Below, piece by piece: positions 52,722 through 63,460 of a stretch of 64,000 bases of DNA; position 1 is the first letter of the stretch, and each line of letters begins with the position of its first letter. The translations under genes and the position numbers were made by a program. This stretch comes from the human T2T-CHM13v2.0 reference genome, Homo sapiens, in assembly GCF_009914755.1 (NCBI RefSeq), contig NC_060928.1. One strand, written 5' to 3'. Under the pieces are notes generated by a model. That model was not told the origin of the DNA and did no database searches. It saw only the letters and a program-made list of their open reading frames with translations.

Positions 52722-55700
52722 AACTGATTAATGAAAAAACAAGACCCTATAATCTTCTGCCTAAAAGAGACATACATAAGGACACCTAAGACCCAAAGTA
52801 AAAAGGTGGAAAAGGTCTATCAAGCAAATGGAAAACCAGTGAGCAGGGGTAGATACTCTTATAGAAGACAAAACAAAATTTAAGCCAACAACAGTATAAA
52901 GAAAAAAGAGAAGAACATTATATGTTGATAAAGTGTTCAATACAATAAGAAGATTTAATTATCTTAAATATATACACACCCAACACTTAACACTTAACGT
53001 TTTAAGCATCCAGATTCATAAAACAAATACTATTAGGCCTAAGAAAATAAACTGATAGCAATGCAATAATAGTTAAGGACTTCAACACCCCTCTGACAAC
53101 ACTAGATAGGTCAGAGAGTCAACAAAAAAACTCTGGACATAAACTGGACTCTAGGCCAAATGGAACTAATAGATACTTACAGAACATTCTACGCAAGAAC
53201 AACAGAACATCCATGTTTTTCATCTGCATATGGAACATTCTCCAAAATTGACCATCTGCTTAGCCATAAAGTAAATTTCAGTAAGTTCAAAAAAATCAAA
53301 ATCATGTCAAATACCTTCTTAGACCACAGTGGAATAAAATTAGAAATCAATACTAAGAGGAAATCTTAAAGTTACATAAGTATATGAAAACTAAACAACT
53401 TTCTCTTGAATGACTTTTGGGTAAACAATGACATCAAGGCAGAAATAAAAAAATTTTCCAAAATGAGTGAAAATAGAGACACAACATAGCAAAATCTCTG
53501 GGATATAGCAAAAGGAGTCCTAAAAAATGTTTATAGCATTAAATGCCTACATCAAAAAGATAGAAAGATCTCGATTAACAACCTAATGTCACAACTCAAA
53601 GAAAAACAAGAACAAATCAAACTGAAAGCTAACAGGAGAAAAGAAATAACAAAGATCAGACTAGAACCAAATGAGACTGAGACTGACAAAATGATAAAGA
53701 GGATGAACAAAACAAAAAGCTGTTTCTTTAAAGGGATAAACAAAATTGATAGACCACTAGCTAGTTTAACGATGAGGAAAAGAGAAGATTCAAATACGTA
53801 CAATCGGGAATGATAAAGGCAACATTAAAATAGATACCACAGAAATGCAAAAGATTATCATAGATTACTAGGACCATCACTATAGACACAAACTAGAAAA
53901 CCCAGGGGAAGTGGATAGATTCCTGCAACCATACAACCTCCCAAAATTGAACCAGGAAGAAAAAGAAATCCTTAACAGGACAATAATGTGTAATGAAAGT
54001 AATTCAGTAATAAAAAATCTTCCAACAAGTAAAGTCCCAGGATCAGATGGGTTCACAGGCACATTTTACCAGACATACAAAGAAAGGCTGCTACTAATCT
54101 TATTAAAACTATTCCAAAAAATAAAGTAGGAGGTATTCCTCTCTAACTTATTTCATGGAACCACTATTACCCTGATAACAAAATCAGACAAGAACATAAT
54201 AGAAAAAGAAAACTACAGGCCAAAATTCCTGATGAGCACAAATGCAAAAGTCCTCAACAAAGTAATAGCAAACTGAATCCAACAGCACATTAAATAAATA
54301 ATTCATCATGATCAAGTGGGTTTTATTCCAGGAATGCAAAGGTGGTTCAACATTCACAAATCCGTAAATGTGATTCACCACATATACAGAATTAAAAACA
54401 AAAACCATAGATCATCTCAACTGATGCAGAAAAAAAGCACTCATCTAAATCCAACATACCTTCATGATAAAACCCTCAACAAACTAGGCATTGAAGGAAT
54501 GTGCCTTAATATAATAAGAGACATATATGACAAACCCACAGCTGACATCATACTGAACAGGGAAAAGTTGAAAGGATTCCTCTTAAGAATTGGAGCAAGA
54601 CAAGGTTATCCCCTTTAATCATTTCTATTCAATATAGAACTGGAAGTCCTAGCCAAAGCAATTAGGTAAGAGAAAGAAATAAAAGTCATCCTATTTGGAA
54701 AAGAGGAAGTCATATTATTTCTGTTCATTGATAACAGAATCTTATTATATGTGGAAAACCCAGAAGACTCTTCCAAGACTCGTAGGCTTGATAAACAACT
54801 TCAGTGAAGTTTCACAATACAAAAATCAATGTAAAAAATTAGTAGCAATTTTATACGCTAGTAACATTCAAGCTGAGAACCAAATCAAGAAGTCAATTCT
54901 TACAATAGATACAAAAATAAGTAAATAAAATACATATATATATATTTAACTGAGGAGGTGAAAGATCTCTATAAGAGGAACTATAAAACACTCATGAAAG
55001 AAATAATAGATGATACAAATGAATGCAAAAACTTCCCGTGTTTAAAAAATTAATATAGTTGAAATGATCATACTGCCCAAAGCAGTCTACAGATTTGATG
55101 CAATTTCTATTAATTGCATTCTGGCTGTTATTAAAAAGTCATGAAGCAATAGATATTGTTGTGGATGCAGAAAAAAGGGTTTGCTTTTACACTTTTGGTG
55201 GGAATGTAAGTTAGTAAAACATTTATTTAAAACAGTATGGAGATTTCTCAAAAAACTAAAAATAGAACTACCCTTCAACCCAGCAGTCCCACTACTGGAT
55301 ATATACCCGAAGGAAAAGAAATTGGTATATAAAAAGACACCTGCGTTTGTATGTTTATCATAGCACTAATAGCAATAGCAAAGTTATAGAATCAACTTAA
55401 GTGTACATCAATGGTTGAATGAATAAAGAAAATGTTGTATATATACACCATGGAATAATATGCAGCCATGAAAAAGAATGAAATCATGTCCTTTGCAGCA
55501 ACATGGATGGAGCTGGAGGCCATTATCCTACGTGAACTAACTCCAAAACAGAAAATCAAATATCGCTCATTCTAACTTATAAGTGGGAGCTAACAACTAG
55601 GTGCACATGAATGTAATGATGGAAACAATACATGCTGGGGACTCCAAAAGCAGGCAAGGTGGGATAGACATGAGGGTTGAAAAATTGTCTGTTGGGTACA

Positions 55701-57530: not shown

Positions 57531-57674
57531 TTTCCCTCCCTCCCTCTCTCCCTTCCTCCCTCCCTTCCTCCCTCTGTCCCTCCCTCCCTCACTCCCTCCT
57601 TCCTTCCTTCTTTCTTACCTTCCTTCCTTCCATCCTTCCTTCCTCTCTTTCTTTCACTTTCTCTCTTTCTTTTC
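57531..57674 (+). repeat. ~144-bp polypyrimidine (CCCT/CCTT/CT) tract
   Basis: Read directly; abuts the HERV-H 3' LTR. Confidence 0.95.
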
Positions 57675-58123
57675 TTTCATGCGCGTCCGTGTGAAGAAAC
57701 CACCAAACAGGCTTTGTGTGAGCAATATAGCTATTTCACCTGGGTGCAGGTGGGCTGAGTCCGAAAAGAGAGTCAGCGAAGGTAGATAAGGGTGGGGCCG
57801 TTTTATAGGATTTGGGTAGGTAAAGGAAAATTACAGTCAAAGGGAGTTTGTTCTCTGGCGGGCAGGAGTGGGGGTCCCAAGGTGCTCAGTGGGGGTGCTT
57901 TTTGAGCCAGGATGAGCTAGGAAAAGGACTTTCACAAGGTAATGTCATCACTTAAGGCAAGGACCGGCCATTTTCACTTCTTTCATGGTGGAATGTCATC
58001 AGTTAAGGTGGGGCAGGGCATATTCACTTCTTTTGTGATTCTTCAGTTACTTCAGGCCATCTGGGCGTATACATGCAAGTCACAGGGGATGCGATGGCTT
58101 GGCTTGGGCTCAGAGGCCTGACA
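57675..58123 (-). mobile_element. HERV-H 3' LTR (LTR7)
   Basis: Follows the PPT; about 26 substitutions and one 4-bp deletion relative to the 5' LTR (manual count). Confidence 0.96.
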
Positions 58124-58136
58124 TTCCTGCCTTCTT
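58124..58136 (-). promoter_or_regulatory. Polypurine tract
   Basis: AAGAAGGCAGGAA directly before TGTCAGG of the 3' LTR on minus. Confidence 0.9.
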
Positions 58137-58599
58137 ATATTAATAAGAAAAATAAAACAAAATAGTGTTGAAGTGCTGGGGCGGCGAAAATTTTTGGGGG
58201 GTGGTATGGAGAGAGAATGGGCGATGTTTCTCAGGGCTGCTTCAAGCGGGATTAGGGGCGGCGTGGGAACCTAGAGTGGGAGAGATTAAGCTGAAGGGAG
58301 GTCTTGTGGTAAGGGGTGATATTGTGGGGATGTTAGAAGAAACATTTGTCATATAGAATGATTGATGATGGCCTGGATACGGTTTTGTATGAATTGAGAA
58401 ACTAAATGGAATGACAGAAGGAGAAAAACAGGTATAAAAGGTCTAAGAATTGGGATGACTCAGGATATCTGATTAGAGACTGCCTAAGGAGATTCAGCAT
58501 AGTCCTGCCAGCAAAGATTATTTATTTAAGAGTTAAGAGTGGCAGTTTGGGGATAGCACCAGGAGATATCAGCTGTGATGGCTTGGAAAAACAGTGTAA

Positions 58600-60497
58600 A
58601 CTGGCAGTGTAAACAAGAGCAGGGCATGTATGAGTAGTTGAGAATGGTGAATAGGAGTATGACTAGACAGAAGATAGTAGGGATGACAAGTTTTCTGGGG
58701 CACAGTCCAAGTTGGTCTGGTGTCTGGAATGAGACTGGGGCCTAATAAAAAGGAGCGTCTTCTATACAGGAGCTTAAATGGGCTGTACCCTGTAGCATTC
58801 TGAGGACAGGCCTGAATTCTGAGAAGGGAAAGTGATAAAAGTATTGTCCAGTCCTTTTTGGTGGCTGAGCTTGGTGAGGTGTGTTTTTAAAAGACCTTCA
58901 GTCCATTCTACTTTTCTTGAAGATGGAGAACCGTAAGGGAAATAAAGGTTTCACTGAATACTAAGAGCCTGAAAAACTGCTTGGCTGATTTGACTAATAA
59001 AGGCTCATCTGTTATCAGACTGTATTGAGGTGGGAAGGCTAAACTGAGGAATTAAGTCTAACAGAACGGAAGAAATGACTGCGGTGGCCTTCTCAGACCC
59101 TGTAGGAAAGGCCTCTACCTATCCAGTGAAAGTATCTACCTAGACTAAGAGGTATTTTAGTTATCTGACTCAGGGCATGTTGAGTAAAGCTAATTTGCCA
59201 GTCCTGGGGGGGCGCAAATCCTCGAGCTTGATGTGTAGAGAAGGGAAGGGGCCTGAAGAATACCTGAGGAGTAGTAGAATAGCAGATGGAACACTGAGAA
59301 ATTATTTCCTTGAGGATAGATTTCTACTATGGAAAGGAAATGAGAGGTTCTAAGAGGCGGGCTAGTGGCTTGTATTATAGTATAACCTGCCTTTACTGGT
59401 GTGTGGCGATTAGGCCTGGGTGGAACCGCCATCAATAAATCAAGCATGATCAGGGTGAGGAACAGAAAAGAAGGAAATTTGGGGAAATGGGGTGAATGTC
59501 AGGTGGATCAGAGGGATACAGTCATGGGGGTCAGGTGTGGTATCAGGAATAATGTGGGAGGCCGGATTGAAGTCTGGGCCAGGAACAACGGTAATTGTGG
59601 GAGACTCAACAAAGAGTGAGTACAGCTGAAGGAGCCGGGGAGCAGAAAGTATATGCGTCAGGTATGAGGAAGAAAATAGATTTTGGAAGTTATGAGAACT
59701 GTAGAGAGTGAGTTGAGCATAGTTTGTGATTTTGAGGGCCTCTAAAAGTATTAAAGCAGCGGCAGCCACTGCACGCAGACATGAGGGCTAGGCTAAAACA
59801 GTAAGGTCAAGTTTGGACAGAAAGGCTACAGGGTGTGGGCCTGGCTCTTGTGTAAGAATTCTGACTGTGCTAACCATGCCTAGGAAGGAAAGGAGTTGTT
59901 GTTTTGTAGAAGGTGCTTGGGTTTGAGAGGTCAGTCAGACACGATTGGCAGGGAGAGCACGTGTGTTTTTATGAGAATTATGCCGAGATAGGTAACAGTT
60001 GAGGAAGAAATTTGGGCTTGATTGAAGTAATGGGGGCTGTCTGTGAAGCTTTGCGGCAGTACAGCCTAGGTAATTTGCTGAGCTTGATGGGTGTCAGGGT
60101 CAGTCCAAGTGAAAGCGAAGAGAGGCTGGGATTAAGGGTGCAAAGTAATAGTAAAGAAAGCATGTTTGAGATCTAGAACAGAATAATGGGTTGTAGAGGC
60201 AGGTATTGAGGATAGGAGAGTATATGGCTTTGGCACCACGGGGTGGATAGGCAAAACAATTTGGTTGATAAGGCGCAGATCCTGAACTAACTTGTAAGGC
60301 TTGTCTGGTTTTAGGACAGGTAAAATGGGGGAATTGTAGGGAGAGTTTATAGGCTTTAAAAGGCCATGCTGTAGCAGGCGAGTGATAACAGGCTTTAATC
60401 TTTTTAAAGTGTGCTGTGGGATGGGATATTGGCATTGAGTGGGGTAAGGGTGATTAGGTTTTAATGAGATGGTAAGGGGTGCATGATCGGTCGCCAA
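58600..60497 (-). pseudogene. pol: HERV-H pol remnant (RT N-terminus, partial tether/RNase H/IN), internally deleted
   Basis: SPYNSPILPVLKPDKPYKLVQDLRLIN and YSVLDLKHAFFTI RT motifs in ORF 60132-60497; frame stops before YxDD; 3' boundary approximate. Confidence 0.85.
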
Positions 60498-60650
60498 GGA
60501 GGGAGTAGAGGTATCTTATACTTGTGGGTTAAGGTGGGGGGATACAAGAGGAGAACGCAAAGGAGGCTTTGGATTGGGAAGAAGGGCGGCAATGAGATAT
60601 AGCTGTAGTCCAGGAATAGTCAGGGAAGCAGGTAATTTAGTTAAAGTGTC

Positions 60651-60875
60651 TCAGCCTAATAAGAAAACTGGGCAGGTGGGGATAACTAAAAAGGAGTGCT
60701 TAAAAGAGTATTGTCTAAGTTGGCACCAGAGTTGGGGAGTTTTAAGAGGTTTAGAAGCCTGGCCATCAATACCCACAACAGTTATGGAGGCAAGGGAAAC
60801 AGGCCCTTGAAAAGAAGGTAATGTGGAGTGGGTAGCCTCCGTATTGATTAAGAAGGGGATGGGCTTACCTTCCAC
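60651..60875 (-). pseudogene. pro: HERV-H protease remnant with degenerate active site
   Basis: IPFLINTEATHSTL at the LIDTGA position (no catalytic Asp); flap-like VVGIDG. Confidence 0.85.
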
Positions 60876-60941
60876 TGTGAGAGTTACCCGAAGCTTGGCG
60901 TCCGTGATGGTCTAGGGGGCTTCCGAGGCTATCGGGCAGTG

Positions 60942-62200
60942 TCAGTCTTCAGCCGCTAAGCCGAGAAGATCTGGGAAGGAGTCAGTCAGAGAGCCTTGGG
61001 CCAGAGTTACAGGGGCTCTGGGAGTGGCTGCCAGGTGAGTTGAACAGTCCGATTTTCGGTGGGGTCCCACAGAGCTGGGACGTGGCTTAGGAAGAATCCC
61101 GGGCTGCGGGCATTCCTTGGCCCAGTGGCCAGATTTCTGGCATGTGTAGCAAGCTCCTGTGGGAGGAGGTTCTGGAGGAACGCCTGGCCACTGCGGTTCA
61201 GGCGTTTTGAAGTTCTTGTGTGCTGGAGATGTGGCTGGGGTTTGTCTCACAGTGGAGGCAAGGAATTGCAACTTTTTTCTATTATTGTATGCCTGAAGGC
61301 GAGGTTAATTAAATCCTGTTGTGGGGTTTGAGGGCCGGAATTTAATTTTTGGAGTTTTATTTAATGTTGGGAGCAGATTGGGTAATAAAATGTATTTTGA
61401 GAATAAGATGGCCTTTTGACCTTTTAGGGTCTAGGGCTGTGAAGCGTCTCAGGGTTGCTGCCAAACAAGTCATGAACTGGGCTGGATTTTTATATTTGAT
61501 GAAAAAGAGCCTAAACGCTTCTGATTTGGGATAAGGAAAAAGGAGCATTAACCTTGACTCTATGCCTTTAGCTCCAGCCACCTTTTTAAGAGTAAATTGC
61601 TGGGCAGGAGGGGGAGGGCTAGTCACGGAACGAAACTGTAATCCAGACCAGGTGTGAGGAGGGGAGGTGATAAAAGGATTATAGGGTGGAGGAGCAGAGG
61701 CTGAGGAAGAATTGGGACCTAGCTCGGCCTGGCGAGGAGCAGCCTGGGGAGGAAGGGAGAGGTCAGATGGGTCTGTAGAAAAGGAAGATTAGAAAGACTC
61801 AACGACGCTTGGGGTTGGTACTGAGGGGACAGGTGGGAGGGAAAGAAGGAAGATTTGGGACGAGTTGCACTGGGCACAGAGACTAGGAAGGGACTGATGT
61901 GTAAAAGAATGCCTGGACGTCAGCCACCTCAGACCGTTTGCCTATTTTATGACAAGAATTATTTAGATCTTGCAGGATGGAAAAATTCAAAGTGCCATTT
62001 TCTGGCTATTTGGAACTACTGTCGAGTTTGTATTGGGGTCAAGTGGCATTGCAGAAGAAAATAAGGCATTTAAGTTTTAGGTCAGGTGTGAGTTGAAGAG
62101 GTTTTAAGTTTTTGAGAACACAGGCCAAGGGAGTAGGAGGAGGAATGGAGGGTGGAAGGTTGCCCATAGTGAAGGAAGCAAGCCTAGAGAAAAGAGAGTA
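60942..62200 (-). pseudogene. gag: HERV-H gag remnant (fragmented)
   Basis: CCHC knuckle CYTCQKSGHWAKEC in ORF 60942-61271; HFITQSAPNI in ORF 61357-61626; stops and frameshifts between pieces. Confidence 0.85.
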
Positions 62201-62729
62201 GAGAAACAGAGGGAAGGGGTTCGGGGGATCTTACCTTCCAGAAAAGTGGGGAAAGGGGTTGGGGCACAGAGATAAGAGGTCGGGGTGCGGAAATAAGGGA
62301 TTGGGGCACAGAGATAAGAGGTTGGGGCGTAGAAATAAGGGATTGGGGGTTCTTGCCCCCTAGAAAAGCGGGACTTGCTGCTAAGGGTGAAGGAGAAGGG
62401 GTTGGGGTACTTGCCCCTGCCCCAGGAAAGCGGGACTTGCCACTAAGGGTGAAGGACCAAGGCAGGCGTCCCTGCGTGGTCTGACACCCTTGAAACGTCA
62501 GTGTATAATCAGAGAGGCGTCCCTGCAATTATTAAACACCAAGGGAAGGCTGCCTTCCCAGTCCGTGAGCAGCGCCGGAGTTTTGGGTCCATGGATAAAA
62601 CGTGTCTCCTTTGTCTCTATCAGAAAATGAAAGGAATTGAAATTAAGAGAAGAGAGAGATTAAAGAGTGGAAAGGAGAAAGTGGTTGAGGGACAGTGAGA
62701 GAGGTTGGAGAAGAGAGTAAGAAGAGGCC

Positions 62730-62738
62730 GCTTACCTG
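62730..62738 (-). promoter_or_regulatory. HERV-H major splice donor
   Basis: CAG|GTAAGC on minus, about 145 nt downstream of the 5' LTR, the usual HERV-H leader donor position. Confidence 0.85.
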
Positions 62739-62860
62739 ATTTAAAATTGGTGAGATGTTCCTTGGGCTGGTCAGTCTGAGGACCTGAGGTCATAGGTGGA
62801 TCTTTCTCACGGAGCAAAAACAGGAGTACAGGGGATTGAGCTCCCAAGGGAGGTCCCCTG

Positions 62861-62878
62861 ATCCGAGTCACGGCACCA
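62861..62878 (-). promoter_or_regulatory. Primer-binding site for tRNA-His
   Basis: Plus strand reads ATCCGAGTCACGGCACCA, the 3' 18 nt of tRNA-His(GUG) including CCA, 2 nt inside the 5' LTR boundary. Confidence 0.96.
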
Positions 62879-62880
62879 AA

Positions 62881-63333
62881 TTTCATGCGCATCCGTGTGA
62901 AGAGACCACCAAACAGGCTTTGTGTCAGCAACATGGCTGTTTATTTCACCTGGGTGCAGGCGGGCTGAGTCTGAAAAGAGAGTCAGTGAAGGGAGATAGG
63001 GGTGGGGCCGTTTTATAGGATTTGGGTAGGTAAAGGAAAATTACAGTCAAAGGGGGTTTGTTCTCTGGCAGGCAGGAGTGGGGGTCGCAAGATGCTCAGT
63101 GGGGGAGCTTTTTGAGCCAGGATGAGCTAGGAAAAGGACTTTCACAAGGTAATGTCATCACTTAAGGCAAGGACCAGTCATTTACACTTCTTTTGTGGTG
63201 GAATGTCATCAGTTAAGGTGGGGCAGGGCATATTCACTTCTTTTGTGATTCTTCAGTTACTTCAGGCCATCAGGGCATATACCGGCAAGTCACAGGGGAT
63301 GTGATGGCTTGGCTTGGGCTCAGAGGCCTGACT
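62881..63333 (-). mobile_element. HERV-H 5' LTR (LTR7, LTR7up-like)
   Basis: Adjacent to the PBS; TATAAAA (63011-63017), AATAAA (62940-62945), two ACAAAAGAAG motifs (63187-63196, 63237-63246) and CCCCACCC boxes, all read on minus. Confidence 0.95.
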
Positions 63334-63460
63334 CTCTCTTGATATAAAATATTATAGTATGTTTGTGTGCTGATGGGGGATTTAGTAAAATGAGGGATTT
63401 AATGTGATTAGAGAATAATTTATGCTATTAAAGGAGGAGTTCATCCTAAAGAAAGTCATG

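What the first reader, a model, noticed from the sequence alone, without database searches (positions are those of the whole stretch)
57721..57740. HERV-H 3' LTR has lost its polyadenylation signal
Seen: on minus the 5' LTR reads GGTGAAATAAACAGCC (AATAAA at 62940-62945), while the same site in the 3' LTR reads GGTGAAATAGCT, a 4-bp deletion that removes AATAAA. Established: HERV-H transcripts normally end at the 3' LTR R-region AATAAA. Inference: RNA from the 5' LTR cannot terminate normally and should read through or splice into flanking DNA at lower coordinates.
Basis: partly seen in the sequence, partly recalled or inferred. Interest (0 to 1): 0.8.

Follow-up and report, generated by a model that had tools for sequence, protein, structure and literature searches.

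The report
HERV-H 3' LTR missing its AATAAA
A stem-cell-expressed HERV-H provirus on human chromosome 4 has lost the standard poly(A) signal in its downstream LTR through a small, recurrent 4-base deletion; this is ordinary decay of an old retroviral insertion, and whether its RNA therefore runs on into neighbouring DNA is still untested.

Summary
A 5.66-kb HERV-H provirus lies on the minus strand (about 63333-57675). Its two LTRs differ by 25 substitutions and one indel. That indel is a 4-bp deletion that removes AATAAA from the 3' LTR.

The loss is no more than neutral decay would give.
- 88 of 1298 LTR7-type sites with exact flanks lack the hexamer.
- 11 of 201 PPT-anchored 3' LTRs lack it.
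- The identical GAAATAGC state occurs in 10 other copies. It fits loss of one unit of an AAAT-AAAC near-repeat (inference).

The provirus is already catalogued. Carter et al. 2022, supplementary file 1, lists it as LTR7up1 and highly expressed in H1 ESC. It is bound by NANOG, KLF4, SOX2 and FOXA1, carries H3K4me3 and H3K27ac, and is not called chimeric.

Read-through remains an inference.
- The GU-rich downstream element is intact.
- No AATAAA or ATTAAA remains in the 3' LTR.
- The next canonical hexamers lie 2.4-3.3 kb downstream.
- No 3'-end data could be reached here.

Verdict: a real feature, a new member of a known kind, of low interest.

The parts
62881..63333 (-). 5' LTR (LTR7up1 type). 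Its first base reads A where the 3' LTR has T. It keeps the TATA box (63017), the GC/GT box (63009), two AAAAGAAG motifs (63244, 63194) and AATAAA.
   Evidence: listed as 7up1 in Carter 2022 supp. files 1, 2, 5 and 6
62940..62945 (-). Intact AATAAA of the 5' LTR, followed by the GU-rich element TGTTTGGTGGT at 62915
62861..62878 (-). Primer-binding site TGGTGCCGTGACTCGGAT, complementary to the 3' end of tRNA-His(GTG) plus CCA
   Evidence: The reverse complement of its 15 non-CCA bases ends a tRNA-His(GTG) gene in 5 of 6 fetched loci.
62734..62735 (-). GT of the splice-donor-like CAG|GTAAGC downstream of the PBS
   Evidence: sequence motif only, its use was not tested
58124..62880 (-). Internal HERV-H region (4757 bp) with sense-strand AATAAA/ATTAAA at 61365, 61361, 61346, 60465, 60399 and 58526. 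A purine tract AAGAAGGCAGGAA (58136-58124) abuts the 3' LTR.
   Evidence: coding content not examined
57675..58123 (-). 3' LTR. The TATA box (57807) and GC/GT box (57799) are kept, only one AAAAGAAG is left (58034), and there is no AATAAA.
57721..57740 (-). Site of the finding: GGTGAAATAGCTATATTGCT. The 4-bp deletion lies between about 57733 and 57731. Two neighbouring substitutions (C>T, G>A relative to the 5' LTR) lie within the next 8 bases.
57699..57709 (-). Retained GU-rich downstream element TGTTTGGTGGT of the former poly(A) site
57532..57678 (.). Purine-rich (on minus) tetranucleotide microsatellite directly abutting the 3' LTR end. It has 8 A in the 10 nt starting at 57673.
55222..55227 (-). 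First canonical AATAAA on the minus strand past the provirus, 2447 nt beyond the LTR end. Next are ATTAAA at 54619 and AATAAA at 54327, the latter with a GT-rich stretch about 40 nt downstream.

Best explanation
This is an ordinary post-integration decay mutation in an old but transcriptionally active provirus. The element is an LTR7up1-HERVH provirus inserted in an intron of LINC00989, antisense to it. In its 3' LTR, one 4-bp unit of the near-repeat AAAT-AAAC that contains the poly(A) hexamer was lost, most simply by replication slippage, leaving GAAATAGC with no AATAAA. The 5' LTR kept the hexamer, so the deletion arose after integration. Everything else of the poly(A) site is still there: the CA-rich cleavage region and the GU-rich downstream element. 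Expected consequence (inferred, not shown): when the 5' LTR fires in pluripotent cells, cleavage and polyadenylation at the usual R/U5 site is weakened. Some transcripts would then run through the purine microsatellite into flanking DNA and end at cryptic or canonical signals 2.4-3.3 kb further on. Others would end earlier or inefficiently at the old site. There is no sign that the loss was selected.
For: There is a single 4-bp gap in a 452/448-bp LTR alignment, placed on the hexamer. The 5' LTR is intact at 62945. No canonical hexamer is left in the 3' LTR, and the next ones are at 55227, 54619 and 54327. PAS loss is common: 88 of 1298 sites and 11 of 201 3' LTRs. The same GAAATAGC state is found in 10 other copies. 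Of the three examined, one is the 3' LTR of a chr1 provirus whose 5' LTR keeps AATAAA, one is a solo LTR with a 5-bp target duplication, and one is a 5' LTR. This points to independent recurrence. The reciprocal unit loss, GAAACAGCC, is seen in up to 4 copies. All 25 of the 29 nearest relatives of the 3' LTR that could be read at this site carry AATAAA, so the deleted state is derived. Transcription: Carter 2022 supp. file 1 row 127 gives 7up1, RNA 1, NANOG 1, KLF4 1, SOX2 1, FOXA1 1, H3K4me3 1 and H3K27ac 1. 'RNA' there means fpkm > 2 in H1 from Wang 2014. HERV-H poly(A) sites just downstream of this AATAAA are reported as experimentally confirmed (passages citing Mager 1989).
Against: No RNA 3'-end, long-read or run-on data were available, so read-through is not shown. 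The same table gives 'Chimeric Transcript' = 0 and GRO-seq septile 3 of 7, not the top septile. RefSeq lists no minus-strand gene in the window (hub annotation). The intact GU-rich element could still support some cleavage without a canonical hexamer. Slippage is inferred from the sequence and from recurrence only. The 7 extra GAAATAGCC copies were not examined one by one and could partly share ancestry or gene conversion. Whether the deletion is fixed in humans, or older than the human lineage, was not testable here.
Confidence: 0.75

Rival explanations
1. The 3' LTR poly(A) site still works well enough without a canonical hexamer, by means of the intact GU-rich element and upstream sequences. 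Transcripts would then end in the 3' LTR as usual and the deletion has no visible effect.
For: The GU-rich element TGTTTGGTGGT and the CACACAAAG cleavage region are retained. A TGTA motif lies at 57835, about 100 nt upstream. The locus is flagged not chimeric. No minus-strand gene model extends beyond the provirus (hub annotation).
Against: No listed variant hexamer lies in the 10-30 nt window upstream of the old cleavage region. TATAAA at 57807 is about 90 nt upstream of it. That hexamer loss strongly lowers cleavage is established general knowledge (recalled, not tested here).
Confidence: 0.3
2. Most RNA from this provirus never reaches the 3' LTR as a processing substrate. It is spliced from the donor at 62735, or ends at internal signals such as the AATAAA at 58526, so the state of the 3' LTR hexamer is largely irrelevant.
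For: A donor-like CAG|GTAAGC lies at 62735, and there are six internal AATAAA/ATTAAA, the last with a moderately GT-rich downstream stretch. A review describes HERVH as having a strong splice donor that forms spliced and chimeric RNAs (passages).
Against: Most internal hexamers have poor GT-rich downstream sequence (best 20-nt GT fraction 0.30-0.65). HERV-H poly(A) sites in the LTR are the ones reported as experimentally confirmed.
Confidence: 0.2
3. The deletion is specific to this assembly or individual: a polymorphism or an assembly error in CHM13, not a fixed human feature.
For: Only one human genome was available. The hg38 span given by Carter 2022 (79553970-79559709, 5739 bp) is 81 bp longer than my boundaries in this assembly (5658 bp). 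So some length difference or annotation difference exists at this locus.
Against: Two further substitutions flank the deletion, as expected for old accumulated change. The 81 bp may simply be annotation running into the adjoining microsatellite.
Confidence: 0.07
4. The loss was selected: removing the terminator extended a stem-cell transcription unit into flanking DNA for some host function.
For: The locus is among the minority of HERVH loci that are highly expressed in H1.
Against: The frequency of PAS loss (5-7%) is below the neutral expectation of about 16% for this divergence. The same deletion also occurs in a solo LTR and in a 5' LTR, where this logic does not apply. No downstream transcript is annotated.
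Confidence: 0.04

Closest known systems
LTR7up1-HERVH proviruses active in human pluripotent cells (Carter et al. 2022, eLife, PMC8912925)
   Same: This very locus is in their list as 7up1. It is full length with two LTRs, is on the minus strand, is highly expressed in H1, and is bound by NANOG, KLF4, SOX2 and FOXA1 with H3K4me3 and H3K27ac. The 5' LTR carries the AAAAGAAG motif they show to be needed for 7up promoter activity.
   Different: The passages and tables I saw do not treat poly(A) signals ('polyadenylation' occurs 0 times in the main text), and only the 5' LTR is in their alignments. The PAS-less 3' LTR is therefore not described there.
HERV-H (RTVL-H) LTR poly(A) function (Mager 1989, Virology 173:591; seen only as a citation)
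   Same: AATAAA lies in R, followed by poly(A) sites and a T-rich element. The 5' LTR here has that layout.
   Different: The 3' LTR here lacks the hexamer. I could not read Mager 1989, which by its title also treats LTR sequence variability and may already describe variant signals.
Read-through and chimeric transcripts from ERV LTRs (reviews PMC12228294, PMC11359688)
   Same: If the 3' LTR fails to terminate, the outcome would be the known class of LTR-initiated RNAs that extend or splice into flanking DNA.
   Different: For this locus no such RNA is documented, and it is flagged not chimeric.
Genome-wide erosion of the LTR U3-R-U5 architecture (HERVarium preprint, 10.64898/2026.02.17.706328)
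   Same: It reports about 95% of HERVH LTRs with a preserved promoter-PAS architecture (passages). That is close to my 93-95% AATAAA retention.
   Different: It is a survey. This locus and the recurrent 4-bp deletion are not mentioned in the passages I saw.

Membership tests
HERV-H (RTVL-H) provirus | Primer-binding site complementary to the 3' end of tRNA-His | tested here: met
   TGGTGCCGTGACTCGGAT lies 2 nt after the 5' LTR. The reverse complement of its 15 non-CCA bases coincides with the 3' end of a tRNA-His(GTG) gene in 5 of 6 fetched loci, and the sixth has no tRNA call.
HERV-H (RTVL-H) provirus | Two LTR7-family LTRs in the same orientation flanking an internal region | tested here: met
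   The LTRs are 452 and 448 bp and 94.4% identical. The 3' LTR is 95-96% identical to 39 other full-length genomic copies (query 1-448 or 2-448) among the 42 match rows from 40 scored of 3083 candidates. A purine tract precedes the 3' LTR.
HERV-H (RTVL-H) provirus | 5-bp target-site duplication | tested here: inconclusive
   The flanks read GAGAG upstream and GAAAA downstream, so 3 of 5 match. Both lie in purine-rich simple sequence. Two other copies show clean 5-bp duplications, TGAAC and GCCTA.
HERV-H (RTVL-H) provirus | Internal gag/pol-derived sequence | not tested
   The internal 4757 bp were scanned only for poly(A) hexamers and a splice donor. Carter 2022 lists the locus as 'full', with 2 LTRs plus internal sequence.
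LTR7up subfamily (Carter et al. 2022) | 8-bp AAAAGAAG insertion (SOX2/3 motif) in block 2b | tested here: met
   The 5' LTR has AAAAGAAG at 63244 and 63194. The 3' LTR has it only at 58034; its second site reads TGAAAGAAG. The motif is taken from the Figure 6 legend. I did not map block borders myself; the subfamily label 7up1 is the authors'.
LTR7up subfamily (Carter et al. 2022) | Transcription and activator binding in ESC | not testable with these tools
   Taken from their supp. file 1 row 127; no expression data could be analysed here.
Functional retroviral/cellular poly(A) site | AATAAA or a close variant 10-30 nt upstream of the cleavage site | tested here: not met
   The 3' LTR has none in that window. 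The 5' LTR meets it.
Functional retroviral/cellular poly(A) site | GU/T-rich downstream element | tested here: met
   TGTTTGGTGGT at 57709 in the 3' LTR and at 62915 in the 5' LTR.

The most novel reading that the evidence does not exclude
The PAS-less 3' LTR turns one of the roughly 88 highly expressed ESC LTR7up loci into a natural read-through allele. Pol II started at the 5' LTR would run at least 2.4 kb past the provirus, antisense through a LINC00989 intron, and make an unannotated lncRNA tail. The chr1 provirus carries the identical deletion in its 3' LTR. The two loci together would be a ready-made natural experiment on how 3'-end formation shapes HERVH RNA stability and the extent of the transcribed domain in pluripotent cells. 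The AAAT-AAAC near-repeat would be a built-in weak point that repeatedly erodes LTR7 terminators.
Probability: 0.3. Interest if true: 0.35.

Novelty: new member of a known kind. Interest (0 to 1): 0.2.

Why it matters
The practical value is in annotation. If read-through occurs, RNA-seq signal downstream of this provirus in stem cells should be assigned to the HERVH promoter, not to a separate gene or to LINC00989. The A-rich microsatellite at the LTR end can also fake a poly(A) peak in oligo-dT based 3'-end data. The recurrence of the same 4-bp loss shows how LTR7 terminators decay. None of this changes current understanding of HERVH biology.

Tried and rejected
- A search for LINC00989 gave 31 papers, 25 listed. 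By title and abstract start these concern biomarker, GWAS or expression signatures, and none concerns HERVH.
- Locus names of the HERVH_4q21.21 type gave 0 papers.
- hg38 coordinates from the Carter table, together with hg19 numbers that I derived from recall and did not verify, gave only 6 unrelated papers in the main-text search.
- The 'polyadenylation' passages of Kelley and Rinn 2012 concern Alu and lncRNAs in general, not the HERVH LTR.
- The van de Lagemaat 2006 passages treat ERV poly(A) signals in general and give no LTR7 site detail.
- The Gemmell 2019 supplement lists 1225 loci by number only, without coordinates. The locus could not be found there.
- Wang et al. 2014 Table 7, which holds the original expression and chimeric calls, is not held. 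I know it only through Carter's binary columns.
- A search for LTR7, readthrough and pluripotent gave 7 papers. I opened the one review and found nothing locus-specific.
- No search found this deletion or this locus's 3' end in print.
- I considered a variant hexamer rescuing the site. None lies in the right window.
- I considered AAGAAA hexamers in the flanking microsatellite as terminators. I rejected this as unlikely because only purines follow them.
- I considered a recombinant provirus, because the target duplication is not clean and the 3' LTR is closer to other copies (95-96%) than to its partner (94.4%). I did not pursue it. Near-simultaneous insertions from one source would give the same pattern, and 11 of the 25 differences are in a CpG context.

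Full report
**1. What is in the sequence**

Read on the minus strand, the window holds a 5.66-kb provirus.
- The 5' LTR spans 63333-62881.
- Two bases after it comes the primer-binding site TGGTGCCGTGACTCGGAT (62878-62861).
- A donor-like CAG|GTAAGC lies at 62735.
- The internal region is 4757 bp.
- A purine tract (58136-58124) precedes the 3' LTR (58123-57675).

A local pairwise alignment of the two LTRs (452 against 448 bp, starting at the second LTR base) has 25 mismatches and one gap. The 5' LTR reads GGTGAAATAAACAGCC, with AATAAA at 62945-62940. The 3' LTR reads GGTGAAATA----GCT at 57740-57729.

**2. What is left of the poly(A) site**

The 3' LTR has no AATAAA or ATTAAA. The only hexamers from a recalled list of variants are the TATA box TATAAA (57807), AAAAAG (57903) and AAGAAA at the very end of the LTR (57676). 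None lies in the usual 10-30 nt window. The CA-rich stretch and the GU-rich element TGTTTGGTGGT (57709) are retained.

Directly past the LTR lies a 145-bp purine-rich tetranucleotide microsatellite (57532-57678). It has 8 A in 10 nt at 57673. The next canonical hexamers on the minus strand are:
- AATAAA at 55227 (2447 nt on),
- ATTAAA at 54619,
- AATAAA at 54327, which has a GT-rich stretch about 40 nt downstream.

Inside the provirus the last canonical hexamer is AATAAA at 58526.

**3. Is this more than chance?**

No. With 25 substitutions and one indel shared between two LTRs of about 450 bp, the chance that one LTR's hexamer is hit is about 0.16.

In the same assembly:
- 1298 sites match the conserved flanks of this LTR7 region exactly, and 1210 of them have AATAAA in place. 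So 88 (6.8%) do not.
- The counts were repeated on 3' LTRs only, anchored on the end of the purine tract plus the LTR start and restricted to the ~450-bp length class. There, 190 of 201 have AATAAA and 11 (5.5%) do not, this locus among them.

Exact-flank matching selects the better-preserved copies, so these are lower bounds on loss. A 2026 preprint reports about 95% of HERVH LTRs with a preserved U3-R-U5 architecture (passages), which agrees.

**4. The deletion recurs**

The state GAAATAGC is found in 10 further copies. Three were found and again. Seven more of the GCCTTG type appeared, which returned 16 rows in all. Of those 16 rows, 10 show this state, 4 show the reciprocal GAAACAGCC, and 2 show other states. 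The reversed-pattern control gave 0 hits.

I examined three copies:
- chr1: the 3' LTR of a provirus whose 5' LTR keeps AATAAA. It has a PBS after the 5' LTR and a clean TGAAC target duplication.
- chr2: a solo LTR with a GCCTA duplication.
- chr14: an LTR followed by a degenerate PBS, so a 5' LTR. No partner LTR was found in the 7.5 kb fetched downstream.

The other seven were not examined.

In this locus and in the chr1 locus the partner LTR is intact, so both deletions arose after integration and independently. The hexamer sits in the near-repeat AAAT-AAAC, and the deletion equals loss of one 4-bp unit. Replication slippage is my inference for the recurrence.

The deleted state is derived. 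Of the 29 nearest relatives of the 3' LTR (L002-L030), 25 could be read at the site with my regular expression, and all 25 have AATAAA. Four gave no match.

**5. What the element is**

HERV-H membership:
- The PBS matches the 3' end of tRNA-His(GTG). The reverse complement of its 15 non-CCA bases ends an ARAGORN-called tRNA-His gene in 5 of 6 fetched loci.
- The 3' LTR is 95-96% identical to 39 other full-length genomic copies (query 1-448 or 2-448) among the 42 match rows from 40 scored of 3083 first-look candidates.
- The target duplication is not clean (GAGAG against GAAAA, in simple sequence).

The locus is in Carter et al. 2022 (eLife, PMC8912925), supplementary file 1, row 127. The entry reads: hg38 chr4:79553970-79559709, minus strand, subfamily 7up1, RNA 1, top-septile GRO-seq 0, chimeric transcript 0, KAP1 0, NANOG 1, OCT4 0, KLF4 1, FOXA1 1, SOX2 1, ZNF534 1, H3K4me3 1, H3K9me3 0, H3K27ac 1. 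The alignment label carries 'wanghigh' and 'GRO3of7'. The start of the aligned sequence equals the 5' LTR read.

According to the methods passages, 'RNA' and 'chimeric' are the fpkm > 2 and chimeric calls of Wang et al. 2014 in H1. The paper states that 88 7up loci (33%) are highly expressed.

The 8-bp motif AAAAGAAG, which the authors show to be needed for 7up promoter activity, occurs twice in the 5' LTR and once in the 3' LTR. The hub's RefSeq enhancer features (62253-63151, 63152-64146) overlap the 5' LTR.

The authors date most 7up1 insertions to about 10-14 Mya: 85.6% are shared with gorilla and 6.7% with orangutan. The LTR divergence of 5.6% has 11 of 25 differences in a CpG context. 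That does not conflict with this age, but I did not date the insertion further.

**6. How it most likely works**

- Shown: the hexamer is gone from the 3' LTR only, and the rest of the site is kept.
- From print: the provirus is transcribed in H1 ESC. HERV-H poly(A) sites just downstream of this AATAAA were confirmed experimentally (Benachenhou et al. 2009 passages citing Mager 1989; Mager 1989 itself not seen).
- Inferred: 3'-end formation at the old site is weakened. Part of the RNA should continue through the microsatellite into the LINC00989 intron (antisense) and end at downstream signals. Part may still end in the LTR or earlier.

Against a strong effect: the locus is not called chimeric, it is not in the top GRO-seq septile, and no minus-strand gene is annotated here (hub annotation).

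An oligo-dT primed 3'-end peak at about 57670-57680 could be internal priming on the A-rich flank.

**7. Comparison and novelty**

ERV terminator decay and LTR-initiated read-through or chimeric RNAs are known kinds (passages). The provirus itself is catalogued. I found nothing in print about its PAS-less 3' LTR or about the recurrent 4-bp loss. The supplements of Wang 2014 and the text of Mager 1989 were not visible to me and may bear on this.

I file it as a new member of a known kind, of low interest.

**8. Limits**

Only one human assembly was available. There were no ape genomes and no expression data. Copy counts depend on exact-match patterns.

Noticed in passing
window 57721-57733 against 62926-62945 (minus strand): Three differences cluster within about 12 bp at the site: the 4-bp deletion plus C>T and G>A. 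The resulting GCTATATT shares both substitutions with the GCTTTA[TC]T state seen in 6 of 25 near relatives; 17 of 25 read GCCATGTT like the 5' LTR. This could be a single complex event or a short gene-conversion tract. It was not resolved.
   Followed up: partly
window 57984-57985 (3' LTR) against 63194-63195 (5' LTR): The second AAAAGAAG (SOX2/3-type) motif of the 7up LTR is intact in the 5' LTR but reads TGAAAGAAG in the 3' LTR through two adjacent substitutions. The 3' LTR has therefore also lost a promoter motif.
   Followed up: partly
window 63334-63345 and 57660-57674: The target-site duplication is not clean (GAGAG upstream, GAAAA downstream), and the first LTR base is A instead of T in the 5' LTR. 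Both flanks are purine-rich simple sequence, so the provirus seems to have landed in or beside a microsatellite.
   Followed up: partly
window 57675-63333 against hg38 chr4:79553970-79559709: The published hg38 span is 5739 bp, while my boundaries in this assembly give 5658-5659 bp, an 81-bp difference. It may be annotation running into the flanking microsatellite or a real length difference between assemblies.
   Followed up: no
L035 (G000 C1:42956017-42961641): A second HERV-H provirus has the same configuration: the 5' LTR carries AATAAA, the 3' LTR carries the identical 4-bp loss, and it has a clean TGAAC target duplication and shorter (~385-389 bp) LTRs.
   Followed up: partly
window 57532-57678: The tetranucleotide microsatellite (TTCC/TCCC/TTCT units on plus) abuts the LTR end. 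On the minus-strand RNA it is A/G-rich and could give false poly(A) peaks by internal priming.
   Followed up: yes
window 55170-55227 (minus strand): The first downstream AATAAA sits in sequence that, from memory, resembles the antisense strand of an L1 element. The family was not tested with any tool.
   Followed up: no
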